Of a stretch of DNA of 41,316 nt, positions 1-41,316 are shown one piece after another. The first letter of the stretch is position 1. The number at the start of each line of letters is the position of its first letter. Made by a program: the position numbers and the translations under genes. The notes under the pieces are model-generated. The model saw nothing but the letters and a program-made list of their open reading frames with translations, was not told the DNA's origin and ran no database searches. Location of the stretch: the UHGV virus genome UHGV-0262680; one strand, written 5' to 3'. This DNA is from a virus.

Positions 1-86
1 TGAGAGTCATATTCGCCCTGACTTTCCAGAACCATACGAACTGCCCGTTGACGGACCTCGGGGGAAAAACGTGTATTTTTAGTCAT
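1..86 (-). CDS. IS3-family transposase OrfA, N-terminal fragment (partial)
   Basis: Minus-strand ATG at 86-84 gives MTKNTRFSPEVRQRAVRMVLESQGEYDS, an IS3-family OrfA N-terminus recalled as IS629/IS1203-like; truncated by the window edge. Confidence 0.7.
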   Translation of the reverse strand, partial: MTKNTRFSPEVRQRAVRMVLESQGEYDS

Positions 87-140
87 CCTGTTTACCTCTT
101 TCTCAGGGAGTTTAGTCTCCAGGATTCCCGGGGCGGTTCA
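1..140 (-). mobile_element. IS3-family insertion sequence, terminal 140 bp (element continues left of window)
   Basis: Bases 1-140 are the exact reverse complement of 41178-41316. The element end reads TGAACCGCCCCGGG... on the minus strand and terminates at 140; the orfA start codon lies 54 bp inside the end. Confidence 0.8.
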
Positions 141-270
141 GGTAATACATCCTACTGGAACAGTTTTAATGTCAAAAACCATTTCCGGTTATGGAAATAT
201 GGATTCAACCAAAGCTTTTGTTGGAAAAGTAAAAAGAAAATGTTAGCGATTGAATCCAATTTCCCATACG

Positions 271-2112
271 TTACTGCTGTGTTGCCTCAGTAGCAAACAG
301 CGGTCTGATGGCATTCGCAGCGTTATTTATCGCTCTTTCATAGGCTGGTGTTCCTGCTTTGGTGTTTGCCAAACGAAGAAGCATATTCCTTGCTGCTTTG
401 GACTCATACAAGCGCATCATTGCACCAAAACCAGCCTCAAGCCCCATTGATACGCCAAGGGTCGCAGTTGCGCCAATCGTCCTTATCCTGTTGGCTTGCG
501 ATTGCCCCGTCTGAGTTACTACATTTGCGGTGTCTGACCTTGCTGTTTGCTGTAGAACTTCATGAAGAGCATCAAGCTCTTTCATGTGCTTTCCAGAAAA
601 AATAGTGTTGTAAATTTCACCGCCTGACTGAGATTTCAGCTTATTAACTTCAGTGATGAACTTGGCTGGAGAGTCCCCGGCCTTTTCCGCTATTTTGCTG
701 ACGTAAGCTGCACGCATAGCATCTTTCCCCTTATCATCCAGTGCGCTCCAGATTCGTTTCACGTCAGATGGTTTTCTGCTTAATACAACGGTATTTATAA
801 GTTCAGGACTGGCTTCACTGCTTGCCTTGTTGAGCTTGTTGGCAATGTTTTTATTAAGCACCTTATTATAAACGTTTGCATAATCGGAATTTGCTTTAAG
901 GTATTTTGCTGCGTCTGATGCACCGAGGTTTTTAGCAACTGCGTTACGAAGGTCTTTTGACATTGCATTCTCTACCATATTGGTAGCTGCTTTTGCCTGG
1001 TTGGGGAAGACCATAGCATCTCCCTGAACATTAGATCTAAATGCTGTTCTGTGCTGACGCAAGAGATCAAACGTAACATCCAAATCAGTTGCAGGGTTTG
1101 CTAATTCTTCACGTAGGTTACGCAAGGATGTAAGCAGGCTTTGATTGGCAGACGTCCCAAGCCGTTCCTGTCTTGCGATCGCTGTATTCAGAGCATTCAT
1201 GGTATTTGTGGTATCAACTGCGGCATTACCCATTTTATTGGTGACGTCATTGATAACAGCGCCAGCGGCATCCTTCCGCCCCCTTAACGTGGTGGTCAGA
1301 GATTTCACCACATCATCAGGGTTGTACTCACCAAAACGGTCAAAATAATTGCTTACCAGCTTACTCCGCGTTGCATATTGCTCTGCTCGCTTTGAGCCCG
1401 TCCCGAGCAAAGCCCCCTCGGCATCCTGAGTAAGGCCGCGAGTGAAAGCATTTTTCGGCGGGATAACATCAGATGTCATTGGTGTCACGCCCATCGATTC
1501 TGATGTGGCAATTTTCTTCGCCACTTCTGGCGCAATATCACCTTTTATAGCCGTTATTCCACGCCCTATTCCCTTTGCTGCTGCGGAAAGAACACCCTGA
1601 GCGGCAAGGTTAACTCCGGCATTTTTAGCTGCATTTTGTGCGAAATCGCCTTTCTGATTTGCGGCCTCTGCCAGCGATCCAATAGCCATGCTTCCTGCCG
1701 TTCCAACTCCTGGAACTAAATACCCACCAATTGTTTCACCGGCTTGTGCGTATGGGTCTGTCGGTTTGTCTACTGGACGATAAACATCATCCAAAACTTT
1801 TGGCCCACCAAGCCCCTGACTGATTGCATTAATCAGACTTGCGCCACCCTGCAATACGTCAAATGGTATGTTTACCAGACCACGACCAGCCTGTTCTGCA
1901 ATTTGCCCTGCACTTTGACCACCAGTGAGCCAATCGCCAGCTTGTTGCATCAATGATGGTTCTTCACGTACTGGTGCATTATTGGCCTGATTAACTGTTT
2001 GTTGCTGAACAACCTGACCAGCAAAATAATCATCAATGGCGGCTCCAATATCTTCCGTGCTCGTACCATCAGGGAAGGTAAATGTCTTACCGTTTGCAGT
2101 TACTTTCATCAT
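271..2112 (-). CDS. P22 gp16-like ejection (internal virion) protein, 613 aa
   Basis: Size and order match the P22 7-20-16 ejection gene set (about 229/471/609 aa). The ATG overlaps the upstream stop in an ATGA junction at 2109-2112. The protein is Ala/Gln/Asn-rich, as ejection proteins are. Confidence 0.6.
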
Positions 2113-3524
2113 TCCACCGTAAATTGAATGACTGATTTTGAGGTATATGATCCAACCTGATTCCGTGGTTCTCCTGAAGGTGTCGAATCTTGTGCTGGCG
2201 CTGCGTCAGTATTCAATGACATATACCGCTTAACGGCACTCCCCAATGATTCACCTTTTTTAACATCCAACCCCAATATCTGACCGCCATTACGCGATTG
2301 TCCAGGATTGCCATTCGCGCTCATCCACTCAGCTTTAAACTCATTAAACTGCGCGTTTCGTCGCTCAAGGTTTGCCATTGCATCAAGCCATCTTGCGACC
2401 GTCTCAGGGTTATCCATGTCAGTTGGCGCACCCTGCCGAACGATCTCAACGTCTTTATCCGTTGCTGGGCCGGGAGGTAGGAATTTAAGAACCTGACTGT
2501 TAACAAGGGCATTTTGGCGGATGCGCAAATCACGCAATGTCGTATCGCTTCCGGTAAGTTTTGCGAACATGTTCTGTGCGTTACCGAACAAACCTGTCGT
2601 TGGTTTTTCTGCTCTGAACTGTTGAGCAAGCGCACTCATAGAATTGGCTGAGTTTGATGATGCTGTGGCATTGTTTACAGCCGTCTCGATGCCTTTTTCC
2701 ATGTTTACTGACAGCTTAGGTGCTTCACTAATCAACTGCTGAGCCTTTTCCTGCGCTTGCTGCATCTTAAACCCGAACTCTTGCTGATCCAGAGCCAAGC
2801 GTTGTGCTGCGATATTGTGCCCAGTCATTGCTGACTGATAGGAAAGGTTTTGCCCTCTCGCCTGAAGTGCTTCACCAGCCTGATTGCTGCGGATTGTCTC
2901 TGCCAGCCTGCCTCGGTCAATTTCACGACCAGCCATCTTATCCTGAACAGCAAACGCCTTTTCTGGTCCAAGCGCACCGAGAGACATAGTAGTCAGCATG
3001 TGTGATAGCTGCTCTGGATTCTGGATACCTGTCTGAATCATCCAGTCAGCATTAGCACCAACGCGATTTAACCTGTCCTTGTTGTCAGTAATGAATTTAC
3101 TGTAGGCTTCCGGTCCCTGAGAAAGAGCGACGTTAGCCCTCATGGCTAAATCGCCCATATCGTTGCGTTGCTGATCATTAAGACCAGAAAACGCCTGTTG
3201 TGCCTGTGCAACAAACGCTGGATTTTCCTGGGCAAACTTAAATAGTCCCGATGGATCACCAGAAGCCCATGCATCAGCGTGAACCTTATTGAACGCACTA
3301 ATCGCTTTCTGTTGCTGTTCCTGATTGTAAATATCAGCAACTCCAGCCAGACCACGTAACGCGGTCAGACCAACGTTATTTGCACCTGAGCGAGCCAACT
3401 CATTGTTTTCGCGGATCAGACCAAGCGTTGCGTTAATGTCGCTTGCCTTTGGCGCATTCTCATTTTGCGTACCGATGCCAGCCAGAAAACCACCAGAATT
3501 AATACCATGTTGCCACGTAGCCAT
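2109..3524 (-). CDS. P22 gp20-like ejection protein, 471 aa
   Basis: 471 aa equals the recalled length of P22 gp20; it sits between the gp7-like and gp16-like ORFs and is Gln/Ala/Asn-rich. Confidence 0.6.
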
Positions 3525-8273: not shown

Positions 8274-9248
8274 TCATTCGGACGTGACCACAGCAAAATG
8301 CAGTCCCGGGTGATTAATCAATAACGGTTCACGGGTTCTGCTGGCTGTCTGCAACTGCATACTGTTAACCGGTACGGGGGAGCGGGTCCTGTATCCCGTC
8401 TGCAACTGTGCGCTGTTCATGGTCATGGGGTCCGTTGTCGGCAGACCTGAGTGCAATTGCGCCCTGCTGAGTACCAGTGGTTCTGCCGTCGGACGGGCGG
8501 CATAAAAGTTAATCCGGTTAATTGTCAGCGGCTTACCTGTCAGTGCCGGAACAAGTGCAAAATGCAGCCCTGCACAGTTAACCGTTAACGGTTCTTCTGG
8601 TTTATATCCGGCCTGAATCTGTATGCGATTAACGGATAATGGCGGACCGGACACAGCCTCATCGTTACCATCGGTGTAAAAAAACTCATACCCTGTTCCA
8701 CCCATGCGGTAATTTTTCAGGAGACATTCCAGCTCGCGGGTGCGTCCGCTGATTAATGGTGTCATGACATCATCAACACAGGTAAAACGCCCGGCGTCGC
8801 TGTCCTGAACCTCCACTTTCAGCAGCCAGCGATACCGCGCCGGATGCAGCGGGTACATGCAGTCGCGCAGGCAGTGATGCGGCAGAACGGCCGTCACCTT
8901 GATGGTGAAGCCCAGCGCCGCAGCAGCGGCTTCAATCTGCCAGGTTGCCAGCCCACCCTTGCGGCGGTATTTCTCCACCACGGCACGACGGCGGGCTTCC
9001 GTTGTGGTGGCGGCAATTCCGCATTCCGGCAGCGCCAGATACTGCTCCCACTCCGGCAGCAGCTGGAGCGTGGTTTCCGGGCGCATCTCCACATGCAGAC
9101 GCGAGGCGTCGTATTCAATGCGGGTTAAACGCGCTGCAAGCGCCCTTAAAAAACGGTTTAAATCCGCGTCGTTATCACGCGGCCATGCTTTACCCCGTGG
9201 CATGACCTGTTGCAGTGCGGTCAGCCATTCCGTCACGCTGTGAGCCAT
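8274..9248 (-). CDS. Baseplate protein (Mu gp48 / P2 gpI-like) with a C-terminal tandem-repeat extension, 324 aa
   Basis: The N-terminal ~200 aa resemble the small baseplate protein family; the C-terminus carries seven ~17-aa repeats of the form P-L-x-(V/I)-N-x-x-x-L. Confidence 0.55.
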   Translation of the reverse strand: MAHSVTEWLTALQQVMPRGKAWPRDNDADLNRFLRALAARLTRIEYDASRLHVEMRPETTLQLLPEWEQYLALPECGIAATTTEARRRAVVEKYRRKGGLATWQIEAAAAALGFTIKVTAVLPHHCLRDCMYPLHPARYRWLLKVEVQDSDAGRFTCVDDVMTPLISGRTRELECLLKNYRMGGTGYEFFYTDGNDEAVSGPPLSVNRIQIQAGYKPEEPLTVNCAGLHFALVPALTGKPLTINRINFYAARPTAEPLVLSRAQLHSGLPTTDPMTMNSAQLQTGYRTRSPVPVNSMQLQTASRTREPLLINHPGLHFAVVTSE

Positions 9249-19945: not shown

Positions 19946-20848
19946 TTATGCCGGGGTGGTGATGAACGGACTGACCACGATGTCCACATCCTTGTACCAG
20001 ATGTTGGAATCGCCGCCGTTAACCAGCATGGCGTCAATGATGCGCTTCGCGGCTGCACGGTTTTTCGGCCCCACCACAAGGGTGGTCGGGCGGATGCCCA
20101 GCGGTTCACCGTTGGTAGCCTTCATACCCAGCAGCAGATTGCTGGCCTTCTCGTAGTTCTCCGCTGTCAGTGCCGCACGGGAACCGACGGCGGTCTGCCA
20201 GAAGCCGAAGCCCGCATTGCAGCGACCGTCCACCCCGTAAAGGAACTCGTTATTCTTGAAGGTGTGCTCGCTGTTCAGATCATCCAGGGCTTCAAACTTA
20301 AAGGCGCGTCGCGTCTGCCAGATGATGGGTTTCAGTACCTGAGAATCATCAATCAGGAACCACGGTTCTCCCTGGTCTGATGCCGGGGTGCCGACAACGT
20401 TGCTGCAGGTGCCGTCGCCCAGCGGGTGGTCTTCATCAAAGAAGTTCTGACCGTCAAAACACAGGGTGTTAAACCCGGCACACAGCAGGGGGTAACACAG
20501 CTTGTCCGGGAACTCCGACGTCTGGCGGCCATAGCGTTCAGCGATAATGCTGTACTGACCAATCTGATCGTCTTCAATGTGTTCGCGTTTAACGCGGATC
20601 GAACTTTCCCAGGTTTTGTTCGCAAGGGTGTAACCATAACCGTCCAGCGTTGCCATCTGACGGGCGCTGACCCATTCTTTAATCTCCGGTAAATCCTTCA
20701 TCCAGCCGTAGGTATTGGAGGCGGACGAACTCGGGATTTCAGAGGCGATACGCTGCCACTGTGGGGTGACACCACTCAGACCACGGGTATAAGCGGCGCT
20801 CAGACAGGTGGTCAGCGCGTGAAGGACTTCGGAAGTGACTGCTCCCAT
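19946..20848 (-). CDS. Major head (capsid) protein (Mu T-like), 300 aa
   Basis: About 300 aa directly downstream of the protease/scaffold gene, as in Mu. Confidence 0.7.
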   Translation of the reverse strand: MGAVTSEVLHALTTCLSAAYTRGLSGVTPQWQRIASEIPSSSASNTYGWMKDLPEIKEWVSARQMATLDGYGYTLANKTWESSIRVKREHIEDDQIGQYSIIAERYGRQTSEFPDKLCYPLLCAGFNTLCFDGQNFFDEDHPLGDGTCSNVVGTPASDQGEPWFLIDDSQVLKPIIWQTRRAFKFEALDDLNSEHTFKNNEFLYGVDGRCNAGFGFWQTAVGSRAALTAENYEKASNLLLGMKATNGEPLGIRPTTLVVGPKNRAAAKRIIDAMLVNGGDSNIWYKDVDIVVSPFITTPA

Positions 20849-21810
20849 CAGTTATTCTCCTGTTTTGGTTTAGCGGCGAGGAACTCTTCCCCGGTAATAC
20901 CCATGCTGCGGCACATCGCCAGTTCGGCGTCGGTCAGTGTCTGCACGGGTTTATCCTTGCCCTGGCTGGGCTTGTCGTTGTTCACCAGCGGCTGTGCACC
21001 TCTGGTGTACTCCGCAAACTGTTTGCGGCCTTCTTCCGTACGGCAGGTGGCAAGGAACATGTCACGGTTTGCCGGGGCCACTTTTCCGGCTTCGATGGCC
21101 GCATCCACAAGCGCTTCTGCTTCCTTCTCTTCCAGTTGCTGAAGGCGTTGTTCTGCGGTTTCGGCACGGTTCAGTGCCAGATTGTGGGTTTCCACCGGCA
21201 CAAACTTCGTCAGATCAGGTGTCTGTGCGCGGTTCAGCGCCACCTGTTCGTTCTCCTGAAGTTGTTTAATGGCGGCCACGGTATCGTCCACCGTGGCGGA
21301 TTCAGCCAGCCCAAGCAGGCCGGTGATTTGCACAGGTACTGTCATCGGGTTTTTCTCCGTATTCAGTGCAGGAAAATCCAGGTTAGGTTTGTTGGTCAGC
21401 CCGACGCTGGACAGGCGTGTCACCGCACCGTCCGCGTCAAAGAAAAACGCCGGGCTGTAATAGCGGTAGCGGCGCTCGCTCAGCATCCACCGGGCGGACT
21501 CACTCCAGACAACACGGCCTTCAATGGTGCTGCTGTCCGTCACCCGCAGTTCCTCCACCCAGCCATACGCCGGAGCATCTTCACCCCGCGGGCCTTTAAT
21601 TTCGGTGGCGTGTTCAATGTCCACCGGAATTTTGATGTCGGACGAACGGGCAACCACCTCATGTGGATTGCGGTTAATCCACGTCCGGCCATCGCGCCCG
21701 GTGAACTCACCCGCAGGGACGAGTTCAAGCCATTCCGGCAGTTGAGCGGGTGTCAGCTCATTGATGGGTTCTGGCAGGGAAAAACACAGCGCCAGCAGTT
21801 CCGGTTGCAT
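20848..21810 (-). CDS. Head protease/scaffold protein (Mu I-like), 320 aa
   Basis: First gene after the F-I intergenic region; has a C-terminal charged, coiled-coil-like scaffold region. Confidence 0.65.
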   Translation of the reverse strand: MQPELLALCFSLPEPINELTPAQLPEWLELVPAGEFTGRDGRTWINRNPHEVVARSSDIKIPVDIEHATEIKGPRGEDAPAYGWVEELRVTDSSTIEGRVVWSESARWMLSERRYRYYSPAFFFDADGAVTRLSSVGLTNKPNLDFPALNTEKNPMTVPVQITGLLGLAESATVDDTVAAIKQLQENEQVALNRAQTPDLTKFVPVETHNLALNRAETAEQRLQQLEEKEAEALVDAAIEAGKVAPANRDMFLATCRTEEGRKQFAEYTRGAQPLVNNDKPSQGKDKPVQTLTDAELAMCRSMGITGEEFLAAKPKQENN

Positions 21811-21850: not shown

Positions 21851-21890
21851 GGAAGGCAGAAAAAAAGCCGGATTTACCGGCTTCACTGAA
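21851..21890 (-). promoter_or_regulatory. Conserved 40-bp dyad-plus-T-run element, copy 1 (late-promoter or terminator candidate), 41 bp upstream of the I ATG
   Basis: Minus strand TTCAGTGAAGCCGGTAAATCCGGCTTTTTTTCTGCCTTCC; nearly identical to 29411-29450. Confidence 0.5.
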
Positions 21891-28158: not shown

Positions 28159-28556
28159 GAATCCCCCTTATGAAAACTGCGCTGATGTTTATAAAGTGCC
28201 GCGCAAAAGATACCGCCCAGCCAGAACGCCAGCTGATAAGGCTCCTTCAGATAAAGAAGGCCGAATGTCAGCATGAAAAGACCAACGGCCCAGACCACCC
28301 ATGACCACACGACAATTCGAAGGGAGGCGGCCCGGAAACGCCTTTTGGGTTGCAGGCGATTAGGTACGTTGCCCAGCGAGAAACTGTGAATCAGGCAGAG
28401 TGTCGCGCCGTATGCCAGCACCATGACCGCAAACGCCCGCCATCCGGCAAAACAGCTCGCCAGAAAAAGTACTGCCGACAGCCCCAGAAACGACCACTGG
28501 TACAACATAAAGCGGGAGTAAATAACGCGAACAAAAAGACTATTCATTCTGTGCAT
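28146..28556 (-). CDS. Multi-pass membrane protein (holin-like candidate), about 136 aa
   Basis: From the ATG at 28556: MHRMNSLFVRVIYSRFMLYQWSFLGLSAVLFLASCF..., with about four hydrophobic segments. Confidence 0.4.
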   Translation of the reverse strand: MHRMNSLFVRVIYSRFMLYQWSFLGLSAVLFLASCFAGWRAFAVMVLAYGATLCLIHSFSLGNVPNRLQPKRRFRAASLRIVVWSWVVWAVGLFMLTFGLLYLKEPYQLAFWLGGIFCAALYKHQRSFHKGDSWIR

Positions 28557-28767
28557 TGAGTTTTTCCTTGTACTTCTGGCACTGCCAGAAAATGTCCCGT
28601 GTATCCACGGAGTTCCAGCCACGCATGTAGTAGCTGGCGTGTGTACCGTCATGACCGGTATAGTCCACCGGCTCTGGCGGCGGACCTCCGTCCATACGAT
28701 GTAAAACCTCCTGACGCAGGCGGTCACGCCGCCCGGCTCTTAGCGAGGCATCCCAGCCTTTACCCAT
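28540..28767 (-). CDS. Hypothetical protein, 75 aa
   Basis: ATG at 28767, just after the lysin stop. Confidence 0.3.
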   Translation of the reverse strand: MGKGWDASLRAGRRDRLRQEVLHRMDGGPPPEPVDYTGHDGTHASYYMRGWNSVDTRDIFWQCQKYKEKLNAQNE

Positions 28768-28768
28768 A

Positions 28769-29365
28769 TCACCCCCGCGTGGCGGACATGATGCCTAAAG
28801 GGGTATCGATGATTTCCAGACAGGCGTCGGTCAGCTTTTCCATGCGGTTAAACCAGCCGTTCAGGTATTTACCCTGGGCGGGTTTTGACTTGATGATGTC
28901 GGCATAAAAGCGGGAACGACGGACAATGCAGCGGGCCAGCAACCAGTCCGGGGTGGACAGACTCACGGCCTTACGGGTACGCGGGCCGATGATGCCGTCA
29001 GCATCCACATCAGCGGCTTCCTGCAAAATCCTGATAGCTTTTTTAACGCCATGCTGAACGGCTGCATCGAACACAAACATCGCCACGCCATCAGGCCACT
29101 GGTCACATCCGGCAGGCAGCCAGTAATCGCGCCAGTAAATCTGCGCGACATGTTCGCGGGTTAAATCCCTGATGCGGGTATCCGGTTTACCGTCGCCGCT
29201 GACATCGGTTTTGCCGTCAATCACACCGTCGCGGCGGTCAGAAATGCCGTATTTGGTTTCGCCGCCACGGTCAGTGGGGTCATTGACATAGACGCCTTCG
29301 ATATCGGGACGCAGAATAAAATTCAGCGCATGTTCAAAGGCCGGGGAGAATTTCAGATTTTCCAT
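28769..29365 (-). CDS. Endolysin, GH108-type N-acetylmuramidase with peptidoglycan-binding domain, 198 aa
   Basis: Motifs EGVYVNDPTDRGGETKYGI and DVDADGIIGPRTRKAV, typical of GH108 plus PG-binding phage lysins. Confidence 0.7.
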   Translation of the reverse strand: MENLKFSPAFEHALNFILRPDIEGVYVNDPTDRGGETKYGISDRRDGVIDGKTDVSGDGKPDTRIRDLTREHVAQIYWRDYWLPAGCDQWPDGVAMFVFDAAVQHGVKKAIRILQEAADVDADGIIGPRTRKAVSLSTPDWLLARCIVRRSRFYADIIKSKPAQGKYLNGWFNRMEKLTDACLEIIDTPLGIMSATRG

Positions 29366-29410
29366 AAAAGCACCTGTGAAGCAGAGTTAAACGTGGTCTG
29401 CTTCATAGTG

Positions 29411-29450
29411 CCGGAGGCATAAAAAAAGCCGGATTTACCGGCTTCATTGA
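29411..29450 (-). promoter_or_regulatory. Conserved 40-bp dyad-plus-T-run element, copy 2, 46 bp upstream of the endolysin ATG
   Basis: Minus strand TTCAATGAAGCCGGTAAATCCGGCTTTTTTTATGCCTCCGG; nearly identical to copy 1. Confidence 0.5.
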
Positions 29451-29464
29451 ATTAAAAAAGATGA

Positions 29465-29944
29465 CTACTCATCACCTTTGATGGAGCAATCTATCATCAT
29501 ATTTTTCCCCATAGGGAGAAACTTTGTCTGAATGTGAAAGCCCAGAATCTTATACGTTAGTCCGTAACCTTTAACTTTTGCTGCGGAAGCCACCATGTCA
29601 ATAACTCGTTCCTGCTGTTCTTCAGTTAATTGACCAATTACAGATTCAACAACCCGCGAACATGCAGCAAAGGAGGGCAGAGCGCCTACAGGATTATCAT
29701 CAAAATCTTTTACAGTCGTCGTTGAACTAACGACCTTATTATTAATCATAAACAATCCAAACTTGCTGTGAGCAGTTTCGGTTCCACCGTTCTTAATTGA
29801 ATCGCCCCCTTTAAGAGGCTTCCAGCTATTTAGTGCAATGAGGTCTTTTTCGGCCAGGCGTTTTTTGATTACCTCTTCAGAGGGCAGCTTTGCCGCATTA
29901 GCGCAAAATACGCTCAGTAAAAACATAAGAGGAAAGTATTTCAT
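29465..29944 (-). CDS. Secreted (signal-peptide) protein of unknown function, 159 aa; lower-GC accessory gene coupled to mor
   Basis: N-terminus MKYFPLMFLLSVFCANA is signal-peptide-like. Its ATG overlaps the mor stop in an ATGA junction at 29941-29944, and it is visibly AT-richer than the flanking genes. Confidence 0.55.
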   Translation of the reverse strand: MKYFPLMFLLSVFCANAAKLPSEEVIKKRLAEKDLIALNSWKPLKGGDSIKNGGTETAHSKFGLFMINNKVVSSTTTVKDFDDNPVGALPSFAACSRVVESVIGQLTEEQQERVIDMVASAAKVKGYGLTYKILGFHIQTKFLPMGKNMMIDCSIKGDE

Positions 29945-30351
29945 GGCTCATCCTTAAATAGTTGCATTTGATATTTTCCACGCTCCAGCCTTCGCATTCT
30001 TTTGATGGCCTGATATACCGTTTTGTAGGTCACTTTGTAACGCTGCACCAACTCTGCTACGTTTTTTCCATCAAAATCACGCCAGATGCGCATGTCTCTG
30101 ATCATATTTTCCAGTATTTTCCCTTTCGGAACATATACCTGAATCCCTCCGATATGATTGCAAATTGCCACTACCAGCTCAAGAGAGTGGGCAGGGTTAA
30201 CACCAAGCCTTATCAGTTCCTGTCGCAGCAGAGCATTCAGCTCTGAAAGTAGCGCCGGGTAAACATATTTTTCCTGATAATCGTGAAGATATTCCAGAAC
30301 ACTGTCGTCCCGGAAGTCTTCGAATAAATCCTGCTCTTTCATCTGTTTCAT
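29941..30351 (-). CDS. mor: Mor middle-operon transcription activator, 136 aa
   Basis: ...ALLSELNALLRQELIRLGVNPAHSLELVVAICNHIGGIQVYVP...IRDMRIWRDFDGKNVAELVQRYKVTYKTVYQAIKRMRRL aligns along its length with Mu Mor as recalled. Confidence 0.8.
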   Translation of the reverse strand: MKQMKEQDLFEDFRDDSVLEYLHDYQEKYVYPALLSELNALLRQELIRLGVNPAHSLELVVAICNHIGGIQVYVPKGKILENMIRDMRIWRDFDGKNVAELVQRYKVTYKTVYQAIKRMRRLERGKYQMQLFKDEP

Positions 30352-37938: not shown

Positions 37939-38377
37939 GGAATTCGATTAGTTCTTCGCGTGTAGCACTGTAAAAAGTCACGTCATCCACGCCTTTGAAG
38001 TATTTCTTGATGGTTCCTACACGCTTAAGGCCAATCATTGCGCAGTACATCTGCCCGTGGCGGAATTTGCGTGCAGCGAACGATGTGACGCACTGAACGG
38101 TGGTGTTAGTCAGAATGTATCGCCAGAACGCCAGACCGATTTCCTTGCTGAATCCACGAACCTCTGGCAGGTACATGGCGTGGCAATCGAATGTCAGCGG
38201 CTGAATCTCCTGATAGTAAACAATGCCGCCGAACTGCCCGTGCACGCTCACCTCAAAGTAACGGCATTCAGGTTTGTAGTCGTATCCATCGCCGTTGTTG
38301 CTCCCGGCGATAATGTCAGGGTGATTTCCGACTGCTTCTATCAGGTCGATGTTTCGCGTTGGTTTGAATGTAATCAT
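37931..38377 (-). CDS. P22 gene-14-like protein, C-terminus altered by the Mu insertion
   Basis: The ORF reads from host DNA into the Mu left end, ending ...ELIEFLY. Joining the flanks across one GGAAT copy restores ...ELIEFLNHGR-stop. Confidence 0.55.
   Translation of the reverse strand: MITFKPTRNIDLIEAVGNHPDIIAGSNNGDGYDYKPECRYFEVSVHGQFGGIVYYQEIQPLTFDCHAMYLPEVRGFSKEIGLAFWRYILTNTTVQCVTSFAARKFRHGQMYCAMIGLKRVGTIKKYFKGVDDVTFYSATREELIEFLY
37939..37943. repeat. 5-bp target-site duplication GGAAT (right copy)
   Basis: Identical to 4246-4250. Confidence 0.85.
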
Positions 38378-39078
38378 CAGTCAATCAGCCCATGTAATCT
38401 AAGTGCCGTTTCAAGCGCCAGAATACGCTGCCGCGCCTGCTGCAAACCTGTAGCGAGAGCTGCGACTTCGGATTGTGTGTACGTAGTGCCGACAGTGTAT
38501 GACTGGTTAGCGTTGAATGAGCCAAGAAGTGGCGTACCTGTGGCTGCAGTCCATCCGGTATTTCTTGCTCCAACAACCTGAATTCCATCAACTGAATATG
38601 ATGTTTTTACATCCAGCGGTGACTCAAGAGACTGCAATTCGGTTACGGTTTTCGATACGTAATCACTCTTAATGCCAGAGACATCGTTTTCTACGTCATC
38701 CAGTCTTTGGTCAACAGTGACCAGATGCGCCTGAATATCGATAACCTCATCCAGCAAGTAATCAACATCGCTACGCAGTACGACTATCTTCCCTTCGGCA
38801 GTTGTTAACCTGACCTCAAGTAGATTTATCGCTTTTGTGTTTGCGGTGATTCTTGCGTCGTGATCAGCCAGTTCGACGTCCTGTTCATCGTTTTTCACCT
38901 GAGCATCGTAAGCGCCCTGACCAGCCTGATTTGCCTTCCCGGCAATTGCGCCGACATCAGCCCCCTGATTAATGACATACAGCAGGTAAGACTGGCTGAA
39001 TATATTGCGTGGAAGGATTGATGTATCGAGCCGCGTCGCCTGCACAATAACAGGGGTGTTGAGATTCGAATCAGCCAT
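38377..39078 (-). CDS. P22 gp26-like tail needle protein, 233 aa
   Basis: [77 protein letters not shown]... closely resembles the P22 tail needle ([27 protein letters not shown]...) as recalled; 233 aa. Confidence 0.8.
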
Positions 39079-40496
39079 TACTCAATCCTTATCTGGCAGC
39101 CAGACAGAGTGACAGGTGACTTCGTGATAACGCGCAATTTGAAGCCGACATTTTTCCTGATGCGCCCGACTCGCTTCCACAAAACGCGTTTGTCGTAAAC
39201 GAACGGTTCATTCTGCTCAATCATCTGCTCACGACCGTAATTTATGCCGTCAGTGGTCGCAGAGAGGAACAGGCGGTCGGCGTACTGAGCTACGCCAGTG
39301 GACGATTCCACCTCCAGATCGAAGCATCTGGCGTTATCCGCTTTGAACAACGGAGTAAACAGAAGGTGTTCCTGTTGAAGCCCATACTGACTGCTGATAT
39401 CGAACTGCAATTTCCCGGTCACCGATTCCAGCTTATCGCCGCACGTTATCTGATTGCCTTCGTAAATGAAGTCGATAGCGCGGTACACATCGTCATACAG
39501 GCCTGTTTTAAGCACACACCATTGCGGACCATTGGCGCTTGAAGATGCGTCGTACACGAGGACGTGACGCGGAAGATGGATAATCAGCAACTCATGAGCA
39601 TCAAACCGCAACGATTCCATCACGCCATCAGCCAGTTCATCAGCAGTGTAGGAGCGGAGGATTTTCTCAATGCTCGCACTGGCGATTGGTGACACCTGAC
39701 CGGAGCCGATGATGTACACAGACGGCGCACCTGTTGCCGGATTGCTGATGAACGCATATGAATCAGAGAATGGCGTTTTGCAGTAAGTCCCGGCGATTCC
39801 TTTTTGCACCATTAGTGATGGCTGTGCGACATACAAAGCGGCACCAACGGTGGTTGCACCAGTCAGGGAAAAATATTCAATCGTCGATGAACCAAAGCAG
39901 ACGATGAAATCTCGCCATGTTCCGATGCCGATGATACCGTCCGGCTGCGATTCTGCCCGATATTGTGCGCTGTAGCGGTCAGGATGCGATTCGTCTTCAA
40001 GGTCAGTGATAAACCATGAATCAGTACCGTCTTTTGACCACGCATAACGCCCACGTAAACGCGTAATGTCACGGACCGAACCTAACTCATACTGCGTGAA
40101 TCCGCTGTCCGTAGGCCAGTTTGAGACGGTTTTAACCGTGCCATCATAGCGGTATTCGACCAGTTGACCATTAACGCCTACCGCCTGTGATGTCCGACCA
40201 TGTGCCATTGATACGCGACCACTTCCGGCAACATCACCAACTTCACTTTCTCCTTTGTACAGCTTGCCACCACACACGCGATAAACAGCACTCTGCGCCA
40301 TGTTGTACTCGACGCCTCGCGATACGCCGTTCACATCAGAACGTTTGGCAATGCCCGGGAATGAGCGAAGATATCCCGATGAATTCAACACCTCCTTGGG
40401 CGTAGCTAAAAGATTGACTGGAAGTTGGTCTATATAATCAGCATTAACCGCACTTTTCCCCAATCCCTTCATTAGTGGTAGTTGTTGTATTGCCAT
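39078..40496 (-). CDS. P22 gp10-like tail hub protein, about 472 aa
   Basis: Immediately upstream of the tail needle gene; from the ATG at 40496 it is 472 aa, matching P22 gp10 (the track start at 40505 is TTG). Confidence 0.65.
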
Positions 40497-41028
40497 TGGA
40501 ATCAACCTTTATATGAACCCAGTTAGCATCACGCTTTAGCCTACTTGCCCAGGTCTTAGATATCCCGTACTTAGCCGCAATTACTGACAAGCTTTCTTTT
40601 GATGACTTGATTGCAAGAACATCGTCATCACTCAACTTGTGTTTTGGGTGCTTGGTTCCGAAAAACTTGATTGGTTTCTTTAATCCGGTGGCGTATGCAT
40701 GTTTGATGTTTTCGCTTTGAGTGCACCACTCAAGATTATTGACGTTATTATTGAGTGGATTGCCATCAATATGATTTACCTGAGGCTTGTTTTCAGGATT
40801 TGGCAGGAATGTCATTGCAACGATTCGATGGGCAAAAGTCCATTTTGCTCCGATATTATAAAGCACCCTTCCCTGATTGATTTTAGGCTTTAACCAGCGC
40901 CCCTTTCTGAGTTGCGTGCTGCCATGCGCAGCCTTAACAACACGTGAGTGAGAATATACCCTGCCATCTTCTGTTACGGCATAAACACCTTCAAATCCAG
41001 GTATATCTTTAGCATTCTCAGAAAGCAT
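40444..41028 (-). CDS. HNH homing endonuclease, 194 aa
   Basis: HNH motif HIDGNPLNNNVNNLEW and a C-terminal helix-turn-helix-like DNA-binding segment; strong AAGGAG ribosome-binding site. Confidence 0.75.
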   Translation of the reverse strand: MLSENAKDIPGFEGVYAVTEDGRVYSHSRVVKAAHGSTQLRKGRWLKPKINQGRVLYNIGAKWTFAHRIVAMTFLPNPENKPQVNHIDGNPLNNNVNNLEWCTQSENIKHAYATGLKKPIKFFGTKHPKHKLSDDDVLAIKSSKESLSVIAAKYGISKTWASRLKRDANWVHIKVDSNGNTTTTTNEGIGEKCG

Positions 41029-41064
41029 ATCTACTCCTTAAAGTTTCGATTTTTCATGTACTTA

Positions 41065-41169
41065 TTATATCAAAATTGCCAGCATATTCACTGGCAGATA
41101 GTCGATATAGTCGGCGTTTCGAAAGTCTTTGCCGACACCTTTCATAAGCGGAAGTTGCTGAATCGGCAT
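41065..41169 (-). pseudogene. Duplicated 5' fragment of the gp10-like gene, 34 codons
   Basis: Translation [34 protein letters not shown]-stop parallels the gp10-like N-terminus [31 protein letters not shown]... Confidence 0.5.
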
Positions 41170-41177
41170 TTATTCAC

Positions 41178-41316
41178 TGAACCGCCCCGGGAATCCTGGA
41201 GACTAAACTCCCTGAGAAAGAGGTAAACAGGATGACTAAAAATACACGTTTTTCCCCCGAGGTCCGTCAACGGGCAGTTCGTATGGTTCTGGAAAGTCAG
41301 GGCGAATATGACTCTC
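41178..41316 (+). mobile_element. IS3-family insertion sequence, terminal 139 bp (element continues right of window)
   Basis: TGAACCGCCCCGGGAATCCTGGAGACTAAACTCC...; inverted copy of 1-140. Confidence 0.8.
41232..41316 (+). CDS. IS3-family transposase OrfA, N-terminal fragment (partial)
   Basis: ATG at 41232 gives MTKNTRFSPEVRQRAVRMVLESQGEYDS. Confidence 0.7.
   Translation, partial: MTKNTRFSPEVRQRAVRMVLESQGEYDS

What the first reader, a model, noticed from the sequence alone, without database searches (positions are those of the whole stretch)
29465..29944. AT-rich secreted-protein gene translationally coupled to mor (candidate accessory function)
The 159-aa ORF has a classical signal peptide (MKYFPLMFLLSVFCANA, then AKLP), overlaps the mor stop by ATGA, and is followed by a hairpin-plus-T-run element. 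Its base composition is visibly AT-richer than the neighbouring phage genes. A periplasmic protein made from the early operon of a transposable phage is a candidate superinfection-exclusion, host-modulation or anti-defence factor.
Basis: partly seen in the sequence, partly recalled or inferred. Interest (0 to 1): 0.55.

Follow-up and report, generated by a model that had tools for sequence, protein, structure and literature searches.

The report
Exported accessory protein after phage mor
This is a real gene for a small protein of unknown function, apparently exported to the periplasm, made as the last early gene of a Mu-like E. coli prophage; related phages carry other envelope proteins or nothing at that spot, so a role in phage competition or envelope control is plausible but untested.

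Summary
ORF 29465-29944 (minus strand, 159 aa) overlaps the mor stop codon by ATGA and has a Sec-type signal peptide (ANA|AKLP). A hairpin plus T-run follows it, and it is AT-richer than both neighbours.

It is a real gene: dN/dS is 0.09-0.21. It belongs to a tiny family, phrog_38744, with only 11 hits among 1.84 billion representative proteins. Every named member is a "hypothetical protein" from Enterobacterales. W41, C95 and C153 are invariant. The confident AlphaFold model (pLDDT 88) has no convincing fold relative.

In all 35 loci where context could be read, the family lies between mor and a 19-nt dyad/terminator. That dyad also follows mor in phage Mu itself, so the terminator belongs to the phage backbone, not to the gene.

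Across about 100 Mu-like loci this slot is either empty or holds exactly one AT-rich gene:
- this family (35 loci)
- a second secreted two-cysteine family (13 loci)
- a three-TM membrane protein (15 loci)

So it is an exchangeable envelope-protein slot at the end of the early operon. Function is unknown. My best guess is a periplasmic superinfection-exclusion or protection factor made during lytic growth (about 0.35). The finding is moderately interesting, and the protein is best filed as a new member of a known kind.

The parts
29465..29944 (-). ORF159 coding sequence (159 aa including the signal peptide; mature protein 142 aa, 15.5 kDa, pI 8.5). Member of phrog_38744, here called 'class A' slot protein.
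   Evidence: dN/dS is 0.09-0.21 in 10 pairs.
29894..29944 (-). Signal-peptide coding part (aa 1-17, MKYFPLMFLLSVFCANA). The predicted signal-peptidase I site is ANA|AK.
   Evidence: Sequence and heuristic n/h/c analysis across the family. Cys14 is not conserved (S in P0005/P0006) and Phe sits at -1, so this is not a lipobox.
29951..29955 (-). Shine-Dalgarno sequence AAGGA, 6 nt upstream of the ORF159 ATG and inside the last codons of mor.
   Evidence: Read directly from the sequence.
29941..30351 (-). mor, the only Mor/C-family activator gene in the window. Its stop codon overlaps the ORF159 start (ATGA at 29941-29944).
   Evidence: Pfam Mor 7e-30. Mu Mor and Mu C both match only this place in the window.
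29660..29662 (-). Codon for Cys95, invariant in 28 diverse family members and lying in helix 88-103 of the model.
29486..29488 (-). Codon for Cys153, invariant and lying in the last beta-strand (148-157). It is the presumed disulphide partner of Cys95.
   Evidence: The pairing itself is inferred.
29421..29445 (-). Backbone dyad/intrinsic terminator GAAGCCGGTAAATCCGGCTTT plus T-run, marking the end of the early operon. It is not part of the exchangeable cassette.
   Evidence: The 19-nt core is exact in all 25 loci first examined, including phage Mu 7 nt after its mor stop. Two copies occur in the window against 0 expected.
29369..29412 (-). Second hairpin in the leader of the endolysin gene. 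It is backbone context, not part of ORF159.
28769..29365 (-). GH108 endolysin with a PG_binding_3 domain, the first gene of the next transcription unit.
   Evidence: Pfam 2.8e-23 and 2.9e-17; PHROG endolysin.

Best explanation
**What it is (well supported).** ORF159 is a functional accessory gene of a Mu-like prophage. It occupies an exchangeable one-gene slot between the late-activator gene mor and the conserved early terminator.

**Shown**
- It is AT-rich.
- It is translationally coupled to mor (ATGA overlap, own Shine-Dalgarno sequence).
- No sigma-70-like promoter lies upstream.
- The backbone terminator follows 20 nt after its stop codon.

**Inferred from these**
- It is transcribed only as the last cistron of the early (Pe) operon. 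It would then be made during induction or infection at about the time Mor appears, and not in a repressed lysogen.
- The precursor is exported by Sec and cleaved after ANA17.
- The 142-aa mature protein folds in the periplasm into a six-stranded antiparallel sheet packed against two long helices, locked by a Cys95-Cys153 disulphide.

**Most likely role (inferred, about 0.35).** It acts in the envelope of the cell that is producing phage, as a protection or exclusion factor. It would block a periplasmic step of entry by a second phage, including sibling virions. This is the job of T4 Sp/Imm and P1 Sim, done by an unrelated protein.

**Why this role.** The slot holds only envelope proteins, the alternatives are swapped between near-identical backbones, and the alleles are much older than their flanks.
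For: **Real gene**
- dN/dS is 0.09-0.21 in 10 pairs.
- W41, C95 and C153 are invariant over 28 members at 13-81% identity.
- The AlphaFold model is confident: pLDDT 87.8, pTM 0.80.

**Exported**
- An N-terminal hydrophobic segment is present in all 35 class-A proteins scored, mostly with A-x-A sites.
- Two invariant cysteines lie in the mature part, while the signal-peptide cysteine varies.

**End of the early operon**
- ATGA overlap with mor.
- The only sigma-70-like site in 2.6 kb lies inside the ORF, and the count is below what shuffled sequence gives.
- The terminator matches the Mu element at Mu coordinate about 9.18 kb.

**Accessory slot**
- The distance from the mor stop to the dyad is either 6-7 nt (about 37 loci, Mu included) or 334-557 nt with one ORF.
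- That ORF is class A (35 loci), a second secreted two-cysteine family, class B (13 loci), or a 103-110 aa three-TM protein, class C (15 loci).
- Class A is exchanged for class B on a backbone whose Mor is 98.5% identical. The junctions lie in the signal-peptide codons and just before the dyad.
- In all 49 distinct loci the slot gene is AT-richer than both mor and lys.

**Old alleles on young backbones**
- dS of ORF159 is 0.77-1.6, against 0.2-0.5 for lys and gemA.
- Protein identity is 21-27% in phages whose Mor, lys and holin-like proteins are 55-65% identical.

**Polylysogens carry different alleles**
- Trabulsiella guamensis: class A, a second class A at 41% identity, and class B.
- Raoultella BIGb0138: class A and class C.
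Against: - No sequence or fold similarity to any known exclusion protein, and nothing in PADLOC.
- If it is made only in lytic growth, it cannot protect the lysogen, which is where most prophage exclusion genes act.
- Polylysogeny by phages of the same family shows that establishment is not blocked.
- Export, signal-peptide cleavage, the disulphide and the timing of expression are all inferred from sequence.
- The "always an envelope protein" pattern fits lysis control or host-envelope manipulation equally well.
- Overall purifying selection (dN/dS 0.1-0.2) gives no direct sign of an arms race at the residue level.
Confidence: 0.4

Rival explanations
1. Lysis-timing or envelope-conditioning factor. 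On this reading the periplasmic protein, and the class B and C alternatives, modulate the adjacent lysis cassette (GH108 endolysin, holin-like 202-aa protein). It would act as an antiholin-like brake or a peptidoglycan/endolysin modulator, comparable to T4 RI.
For: - Slot genes were found only in phages where the dyad is followed directly by the GH108 endolysin 67-89 nt downstream. The Mu-type loci, which have a C gene and a SAR endolysin, are all empty.
- Class C proteins are about 105 aa with three TM segments, the size and topology of class I holins and antiholins.
- The gene lies next to the lysis genes.
Against: - A strong, conserved terminator separates it from lys.
- About 22 GH108-type loci have an empty slot. 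Where the downstream genes were read (L002, L005), the lysis cassette is the same, so lysis does not need the slot gene.
- There is no similarity to known antiholins or lysozyme inhibitors.
- The link with GH108-type phages may simply reflect phylogeny.
Confidence: 0.2
2. Binder or inhibitor of a host periplasmic component, such as a protease, a nuclease, a lipoprotein or lipid carrier, or an envelope-stress sensor. It would keep the envelope permissive during phage development, or act as an anti-defence factor.
For: - There is one BFVD match to a 180-aa metagenomic phage protein auto-named as a periplasmic binding protein (E 6e-5, TM 0.58).
- Expression would be early and the location periplasmic.
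Against: - Interchange with an unrelated three-TM membrane protein is hard to reconcile with one specific soluble host target.
- There are no PADLOC or anti-defence family matches.
Confidence: 0.15
3. Lysogenic-conversion (fitness or virulence) factor. On this reading it is expressed from the resident prophage for the benefit of the bacterium, like classical morons.
For: - It has an AT-rich composition, is polymorphic for presence and absence, and encodes a secreted product.
- 23 of the 24 E. coli genomes that carry it are human isolates.
- In one locus (L009) mor is split while the slot ORF is intact.
Against: - No promoter-like site lies upstream, and the gene is coupled to mor inside the repressed early operon.
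- It has no terminator of its own.
- It is never found outside the mor-dyad slot in the 35 contexts read.
- The human bias is probably clonal, since 23 copies are identical.
Confidence: 0.1
4. Not a functional gene: either a chance ORF or a decaying remnant.
For: It has no annotated function anywhere, and the family is very small.
Against: - dN/dS is 0.09-0.21 with dS up to 1.6.
- The ORF is intact at full length in 35 loci from at least 10 genera.
- The Trp and two Cys are invariant.
- The structure model is confident.
Confidence: 0.02

Closest known systems
phrog_38744 (PHROGs v4, 'unknown function')
   Same: Full-length match, residues 1-159 against profile 1-159, E 1e-87. All 13 diverse members tested hit only this family.
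   Different: Nothing differs: this is the family. It carries no function, and no member is present in the 50,697 deposited phage genomes searched.
T4 Sp (spackle) and Imm, early superinfection-exclusion proteins (own knowledge)
   Same: They are small envelope proteins made early in lytic growth. Sp is a signal-peptide periplasmic protein and Imm a small membrane protein, which parallels the soluble (class A/B) and three-TM (class C) occupants of this slot.
   Different: There is no sequence or fold similarity, the phage type is different, and activity has not been tested here.
P1 Sim, a processed periplasmic protein that blocks P1 DNA entry (own knowledge)
   Same: It is a Sec-exported, signal-peptide-cleaved periplasmic phage protein that acts after adsorption.
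   Different: Sim is larger and is expressed from the prophage. No homology was detected in the phage or PDB searches.
Morons of lambdoid phages, in the Hendrix/Juhala sense (own knowledge)
   Same: It is an extra gene present in some relatives and absent from others, has a deviant AT-rich composition, and often encodes an envelope protein.
   Different: Classical morons carry their own promoter and terminator and are expressed in the lysogen. This gene has neither and is coupled to mor.
Tip (D3112) and Aqs1 (DMS3), accessory early-region proteins of Mu-like Pseudomonas phages (own knowledge)
   Same: They are small accessory proteins encoded in the early operon of transposable phages that mediate exclusion or host takeover.
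   Different: They are cytoplasmic (their target is PilB), unrelated in sequence, and sit elsewhere in the early region.
T5 Llp and the lambdoid Cor receptor-blocking lipoproteins (own knowledge)
   Same: They are phage-encoded exported proteins, made during infection, that inactivate the entry route.
   Different: They are lipoproteins. ORF159 has no conserved lipobox cysteine.

Membership tests
phrog_38744 | Full-length match to the family HMM | tested here: met
   E 9.8e-88, residues 1-159 against profile 1-159. 13 of 13 diverse relatives match it and nothing else.
Sec/signal-peptidase I secreted proteins | Positively charged n-region, hydrophobic h-region of 7-15 residues, small residues at -3/-1, no proline around the site | tested here: met
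   MK / YFPLMFLLSVFC / ANA|AK. The h-region mean Kyte-Doolittle score is 2.66. The pattern recurs in most of the 35 class-A proteins scored, while a 169-171 aa subgroup may instead have an uncleaved N-terminal anchor. This is a heuristic only; no SignalP-type tool was available.
Sec/signal-peptidase I secreted proteins | Experimental export and cleavage | not testable with these tools
   Needs PhoA/Bla fusions or N-terminal sequencing.
Bacterial lipoproteins (signal-peptidase II) | Lipobox [LVI][ASTVI][GAS]C with a conserved cysteine at +1 | tested here: not met
   The sequence is S-V-F-C14, with Phe at -1. Cys14 is replaced by Ser in P0005/P0006 and is absent in distant members.
Core Mu-family genes | Present in Mu and throughout the relatives | tested here: not met
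   In Mu the dyad starts 7 nt after the mor stop. About 37 of about 100 loci are empty and 28 hold unrelated genes.
Moron (classical definition) | Presence/absence polymorphism between otherwise similar phages | tested here: met
   L002 and L005 are empty, L003 holds a different gene, and the window and L004 hold ORF159, all with flanks 91-95% identical in nucleotides.
Moron (classical definition) | Base composition deviating from the flanks | tested here: met
   41.7% GC against 43.6% (mor), 55.4% (lys) and 52.7% (window). The slot gene is lower than both flanks in 49 of 49 distinct loci.
Moron (classical definition) | Own promoter | tested here: not met
   No sigma-70-like site lies upstream. 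The only site in 2.6 kb is internal to the ORF, and the count is fewer than in shuffles. The start codon overlaps the mor stop. A consensus scan cannot exclude weak or non-sigma-70 promoters.
Moron (classical definition) | Own terminator | tested here: not met
   The terminator is the backbone element, present in empty loci and in Mu.
Known superinfection-exclusion or anti-phage defence proteins | Sequence or fold homology to a described family | tested here: not met
Known superinfection-exclusion or anti-phage defence proteins | Reduces infection by a challenging phage when expressed | not testable with these tools
   Needs plating, adsorption and DNA-entry assays.
Periplasmic lysozyme inhibitors (Ivy, PliC/MliC, PliG, PliI) | Match to the family profiles or structures | tested here: not met
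Class B slot proteins (SA53-3 ORF165; phrog_28288-like) | Detectable homology to ORF159 beyond the signal peptide | tested here: inconclusive
   BLASTP aligns only residues 1-41 (34% identity). hhalign gives probability 46% over 42 columns, and probability 19%, E 1.3e-3 over 132 collinear columns that align the Trp and the first Cys.

The most novel reading that the evidence does not exclude
The mor-to-terminator position of GH108-type Mu-like phages of Enterobacterales would be a dedicated exchange site for envelope-acting proteins. Class A (this gene), class B and the three-TM class C would be alternative, allele-specific exclusion or lysis-control modules. Class A would then define a new periplasmic protein fold and mechanism for blocking phage entry, with expression timed by translational coupling to the late activator Mor.
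Probability: 0.25. Interest if true: 0.6.

Novelty: new member of a known kind. Interest (0 to 1): 0.38.

Why it matters
Phage accessory genes that act in the cell envelope are a main source of newly found exclusion, receptor-masking and lysis-control mechanisms. Most, however, are found one at a time.

This work turns a single hypothetical ORF into a defined genomic address: the few hundred bases between mor and an invariant 19-nt dyad. The address can be located by a simple pattern search. It yields three uncharacterised envelope-protein families, with natural empty-slot controls on near-isogenic backbones.

That makes function directly testable by swapping or deleting the slot gene in an inducible E. 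coli lysogen. If the proteins turn out to block entry or tune lysis, they would add a periplasmic mechanism with no known structural relative. If nothing is found, the gene remains one more conserved hypothetical phage protein.

Tried and rejected
**Homology searches that gave nothing useful**
- Pfam, NCBIfam and PADLOC on ORF159, and on 13 relatives.
- Pfam and PHROG on the alternative slot proteins: only unknown-function PHROGs.
- PDB sequence profile search: best E 0.16.
- Megablast and tblastn against 50,697 phage genomes, including with the distant member P0010: no match.

**Structure**
- The first AlphaFold run, with 7 close sequences, was poor (pLDDT 57) and was not used.
- The second run, with 13 diverse sequences, was good.
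- BFVD gave one metagenomic hit whose sequence I could not retrieve.
- The afdb50 library was unavailable.

**Collection scans that failed**
- Single Mor protein against GTDB genomes.
- The alignment A3 was too divergent to make search patterns.
- P0007, P0012 and P0013 in IMG/VR, and P0007 in metagenomes. The context of six distant members therefore remains unknown.

**Literature**
- No paper mentions the accession numbers or the PHROG.
- The Mu-like/periplasmic/exclusion searches returned nothing relevant.

**Ideas rejected**
- Lipoprotein: no conserved lipobox.
- Core Mu gene: absent from Mu.
- Self-contained moron with its own terminator: the terminator is backbone.
- Essential lysis gene: empty-slot phages keep the same lysis cassette.

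**Side issues**
- RNAalifold on the lys leader gave no consensus because the MAFFT alignment is not structure-aware. Folding each sequence alone was used instead.
- I could not confirm from the papers read exactly which bases of the dyad form the published Mor-binding site.

Full report
**1. The observation**

It runs 29465..29944 on the minus strand, starts with ATG, and encodes 159 aa beginning MKYFPLMFLLSVFCANAAKLPSEE.

The ORF just upstream on the same strand, 29941..30351, matches Pfam Mor at 7e-30. Its TGA overlaps the ORF159 ATG as ATGA. An AAGGA Shine-Dalgarno sequence lies 6 nt before the start codon.

Twenty bases after the stop codon comes GAAGCCGGTAAATCCGGCTTT followed by a T-run (29445-29421). 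The terminator scan finds it, and the spacer folds with z = -4.5. A GH108 endolysin gene, 28769..29365, follows.

ORF159 is 41.7% GC (GC3 40%). The window as a whole is 52.7%, lys 55.4%, gemA 54.6% and mor 43.6%. Only 3.3% of 480-nt windows are as AT-rich. The composition contrast is therefore real but is small against mor.

**2. The surroundings**

Window 9300-37939 is 99.97% identical to a prophage of E. coli NCCP 13717. RefSeq annotates that prophage, in order, as:
- repressor, Ner-like HTH protein, transposase, AAA ATPase (MuB-like), Gam, gp16/GemA, Mor
- the "hypothetical protein" WP_032239695.1, which is ORF159
- GH108 endolysin, followed by Mu-type head and tail genes

It is a Mu-like transposable phage. 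The early operon runs on the minus strand from about 36.9 kb down to the terminator at 29.4 kb, and ORF159 is its last cistron. No sigma-70-like promoter lies in the 400 nt upstream. The only consensus match in 2.6 kb is inside the ORF, and shuffled sequence gives more matches than that.

Mu Mor and Mu C both match only this one mor gene. The phage therefore has a single Mor/C-family activator.

**3. It is a real gene**

Five alleles with DNA in hand were compared: the window, UMNF18, and three assemblies at 69-81% protein identity. Across these:
- dN/dS is 0.09-0.21, which indicates purifying selection.
- dS is 0.77-1.6, two to five times that of lys, gemA and the holin-like gene in the same phage pairs.

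The alleles are thus much older than the backbones they sit on. Against UMNF18, Mor and GemA are 98% identical, lys 90%, and ORF159 only 80%. In phages where Mor, lys and the holin-like protein are 55-65% identical, the ORF159 homologue is 21-27% identical.

**4. The family**

ORF159 matches phrog_38744 ("unknown function") end to end, and nothing in Pfam, NCBIfam or PADLOC.

How rare the family is:
- A word-indexed search of 5.8 billion proteins found 6 clusters.
- An exhaustive profile search of 1.84 billion representatives found 11 proteins.
- A final search with a 28-member profile found 18 clusters. Every one that carries a name is a "hypothetical protein", from Serratia, Trabulsiella, Escherichia, Citrobacter, Klebsiella or Photorhabdus.
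- 24 of 5,426 complete E. coli genomes carry the gene, 23 of them with an identical copy.
- None of 50,697 deposited phage genomes carries it.

What the members share:
- Over 28 members at 13-81% identity, W41, C95 and C153 are invariant and P21 nearly so.
- Every member scored has an N-terminal hydrophobic segment, mostly with an A-x-A site. A 169-171 aa subgroup may keep it as a membrane anchor.
- Cys14, inside the signal peptide, is not conserved and has Phe at -1, so the protein is not a lipoprotein.
- Two invariant cysteines in an exported domain suggest a periplasmic disulphide. This is an inference.

**5. Structure**

With 13 diverse sequences, AlphaFold gives pLDDT 87.8 and pTM 0.80. 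The model has a short helix (23-32), three strands (56-79), two long helices (88-103, 108-123) and three more strands (128-157). C95 lies in the first long helix and C153 in the last strand.

Fold searches gave:
- Foldseek against PDB: nothing at E <= 0.001.
- The weak matches are generic alpha/beta sandwiches, such as PAS-like, Mog1/PsbP/DcrB/LpqN-like, MucB and START-like domains.
- BFVD: one match, a 180-aa metagenomic phage protein (E 6e-5, TM 0.58).

Function cannot be read from the fold.

**6. The slot**

This is the most informative result. Three distant members, from Serratia, Salmonella and E. coli, all lie between mor and a GH108 endolysin in Mu-like prophages.

The 19-nt core of the hairpin, AAGCCGGTWAATCCGGCTT, is exact in all 25 loci first fetched. 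That includes phage Mu itself, where it begins 7 nt after the mor stop (Mu 9177-9195). From my own knowledge, this is where the early terminator t9.2 and the middle promoter lie. The hairpin/T-run is therefore a backbone element and not the gene's own terminator.

I then fetched Mor loci from GTDB genomes (12 loci) and IMG/VR (79 loci), and measured the distance from the mor stop to the dyad. The distance takes only two kinds of value:
- 6-7 nt, meaning the slot is empty. This is the case in about 37 loci, including Mu.
- 334-557 nt, holding exactly one ORF.

| Slot occupant | Loci | Distinct sequences | Size | Features |
|---|---|---|---|---|
| Class A (this family) | 35 | 29 | 158-171 aa | Signal peptide or anchor, two conserved cysteines |
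| Class B | 13 | 11 | 165-178 aa | Signal peptide, two cysteines at the same relative positions |
| Class C | 15 | 10 | 103-110 aa | Three predicted transmembrane segments |

Further points about the slot:
- Classes B and C match only unknown-function PHROGs.
- In all 49 distinct filled loci the slot gene is AT-richer than both mor and lys. The means are 39.6%, 40.0% and 35.9% for classes A, B and C, against about 47% for mor and 55% for lys.
- In E. coli, class A is replaced by class B on a backbone whose Mor is 98.5% identical. The two genes share the mor 3' end and the first codons (MKY.PL..LL) and diverge from there until just before the dyad.
- Whether B is a remote homologue of A is unresolved. 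hhalign gives probability 19-46%.
- Empty-slot phages keep the same lysis cassette.
- Genomes with several such prophages carry different slot alleles. Trabulsiella guamensis has class A, a second class A at 41% identity, and class B. Raoultella BIGb0138 has class A and class C.

**7. Interpretation**

What is shown:
- It is an accessory gene under purifying selection and has a signal peptide.
- It sits at the very end of the early operon, coupled to mor.
- Its slot accepts only envelope-targeted proteins, and the alleles are old and exchanged by recombination.

What is inferred: Sec export, cleavage after ANA, a C95-C153 disulphide, expression only in lytic growth, and the biological role.

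I commit, at about 0.35, to a periplasmic protection or exclusion function during lytic development. This is analogous to T4 Sp/Imm or P1 Sim (own knowledge). That class of function best explains three things together: interchangeable soluble and membrane envelope proteins, deep allelic diversity, and dispensability.

The rivals are:
- a modulator of the adjacent lysis system (0.2)
- a binder or inhibitor of a host periplasmic factor (0.15)
- a lysogenic-conversion factor (0.1)
- a non-functional ORF (0.02)

No computation available here separates the first three.

**8. Comparison with what is known, and novelty**

The gene is a member of phrog_38744 and of no characterised family. It behaves like a moron in its presence/absence polymorphism and its composition. 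It fails two of the defining moron features, an own promoter and an own terminator. It resembles early exclusion proteins only by analogy.

I found no publication on the protein or on this slot in the library searched.

I rate it a new member of a known kind, namely phage accessory envelope proteins sitting in a variable slot. Interest is moderate. The protein alone is an ordinary hypothetical. The sharply defined slot, with three uncharacterised envelope families and natural empty controls, is the useful part.

Noticed in passing
window 29426-29444(-) and 21865-21883(-); also L010 (phage Mu) 1678-1696 and every Mor locus fetched: The 19-nt dyad AAGCCGGTWAATCCGGCTT plus T-run is exact across genera, more conserved than the genes around it. 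It occurs twice in the window against 0 expected: once upstream of the endolysin gene and once upstream of the head protease gene (20848..21810). About 20 similar bases follow each copy (TGCCTyCsGCAyAcT). Because the phage has only one Mor/C activator, the dyad may serve both as a terminator and as part of the activator-dependent late promoters.
   Followed up: partly
window 29369-29412(-), and the equivalent spacer in L006-L102: A hairpin lies between the dyad and the endolysin start codon. Its inner stem differs in sequence between phages but is kept, and its outer stem pairs a conserved GCAC with the GGUGC of the endolysin ribosome-binding region. 10 of 12 diverse loci fold the same way (z -1.7 to -7.8; nine of the ten at -2.5 or beyond). 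It could mask the endolysin RBS, stabilise the 5' end, or be a DNA site. This is unexplained.
   Followed up: partly
window 1-3000 and 37940-41316: Beyond 37939 the window no longer matches the NCCP 13717 insertion site, which there lies in an SDR oxidoreductase gene. Both window flanks match P22-like prophage genes: DNA transfer/ejection proteins on one side, and packaged-DNA stabilisation gp10, a tail protein and an HNH endonuclease on the other. The Mu-like prophage therefore appears to have transposed into a resident P22-like prophage.
   Followed up: partly
window 28540-28767(-), compared with L010 1749-1967: The homologue of Mu gp18 lies after the endolysin here, whereas in Mu the order is mor-gp18-gp19-gp20-C-lys. 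This phage lacks C, gp19, gp20 and the Mu SAR endolysin. It has a GH108 endolysin and a 202-aa protein with weak similarity to a 3-TM holin (Pfam GTA_holin_3TM, E 0.0014, below the gathering score). Its regulatory cascade is probably two-step rather than three-step.
   Followed up: partly
L017-L021, L060-L070, L094, L100 (for example L019 3881-4213): Class C slot gene: a 103-110 aa protein with three predicted TM segments (phrog_36430, unknown function) and 32-39% GC. It sits at the same position in Klebsiella, Raoultella, Kluyvera and Brenneria prophages. Its size and topology resemble class I holins or small immunity proteins.
   Followed up: partly
L003 2199-2696(-), L025 226-744, L047, L058, L088, L089, L102: Class B slot gene: 165-178 aa secreted proteins with a conserved 'DW' motif after the first helix and two cysteines at about the same relative positions as in ORF159. 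In E. coli they share the first ~10 codons with ORF159. They may be very remote homologues.
   Followed up: partly
L009 5605-5989: In one E. coli assembly the mor gene is split into 94-aa and 48-aa pieces while the downstream class A gene is intact. This may be a decaying prophage that has retained the slot gene.
   Followed up: no
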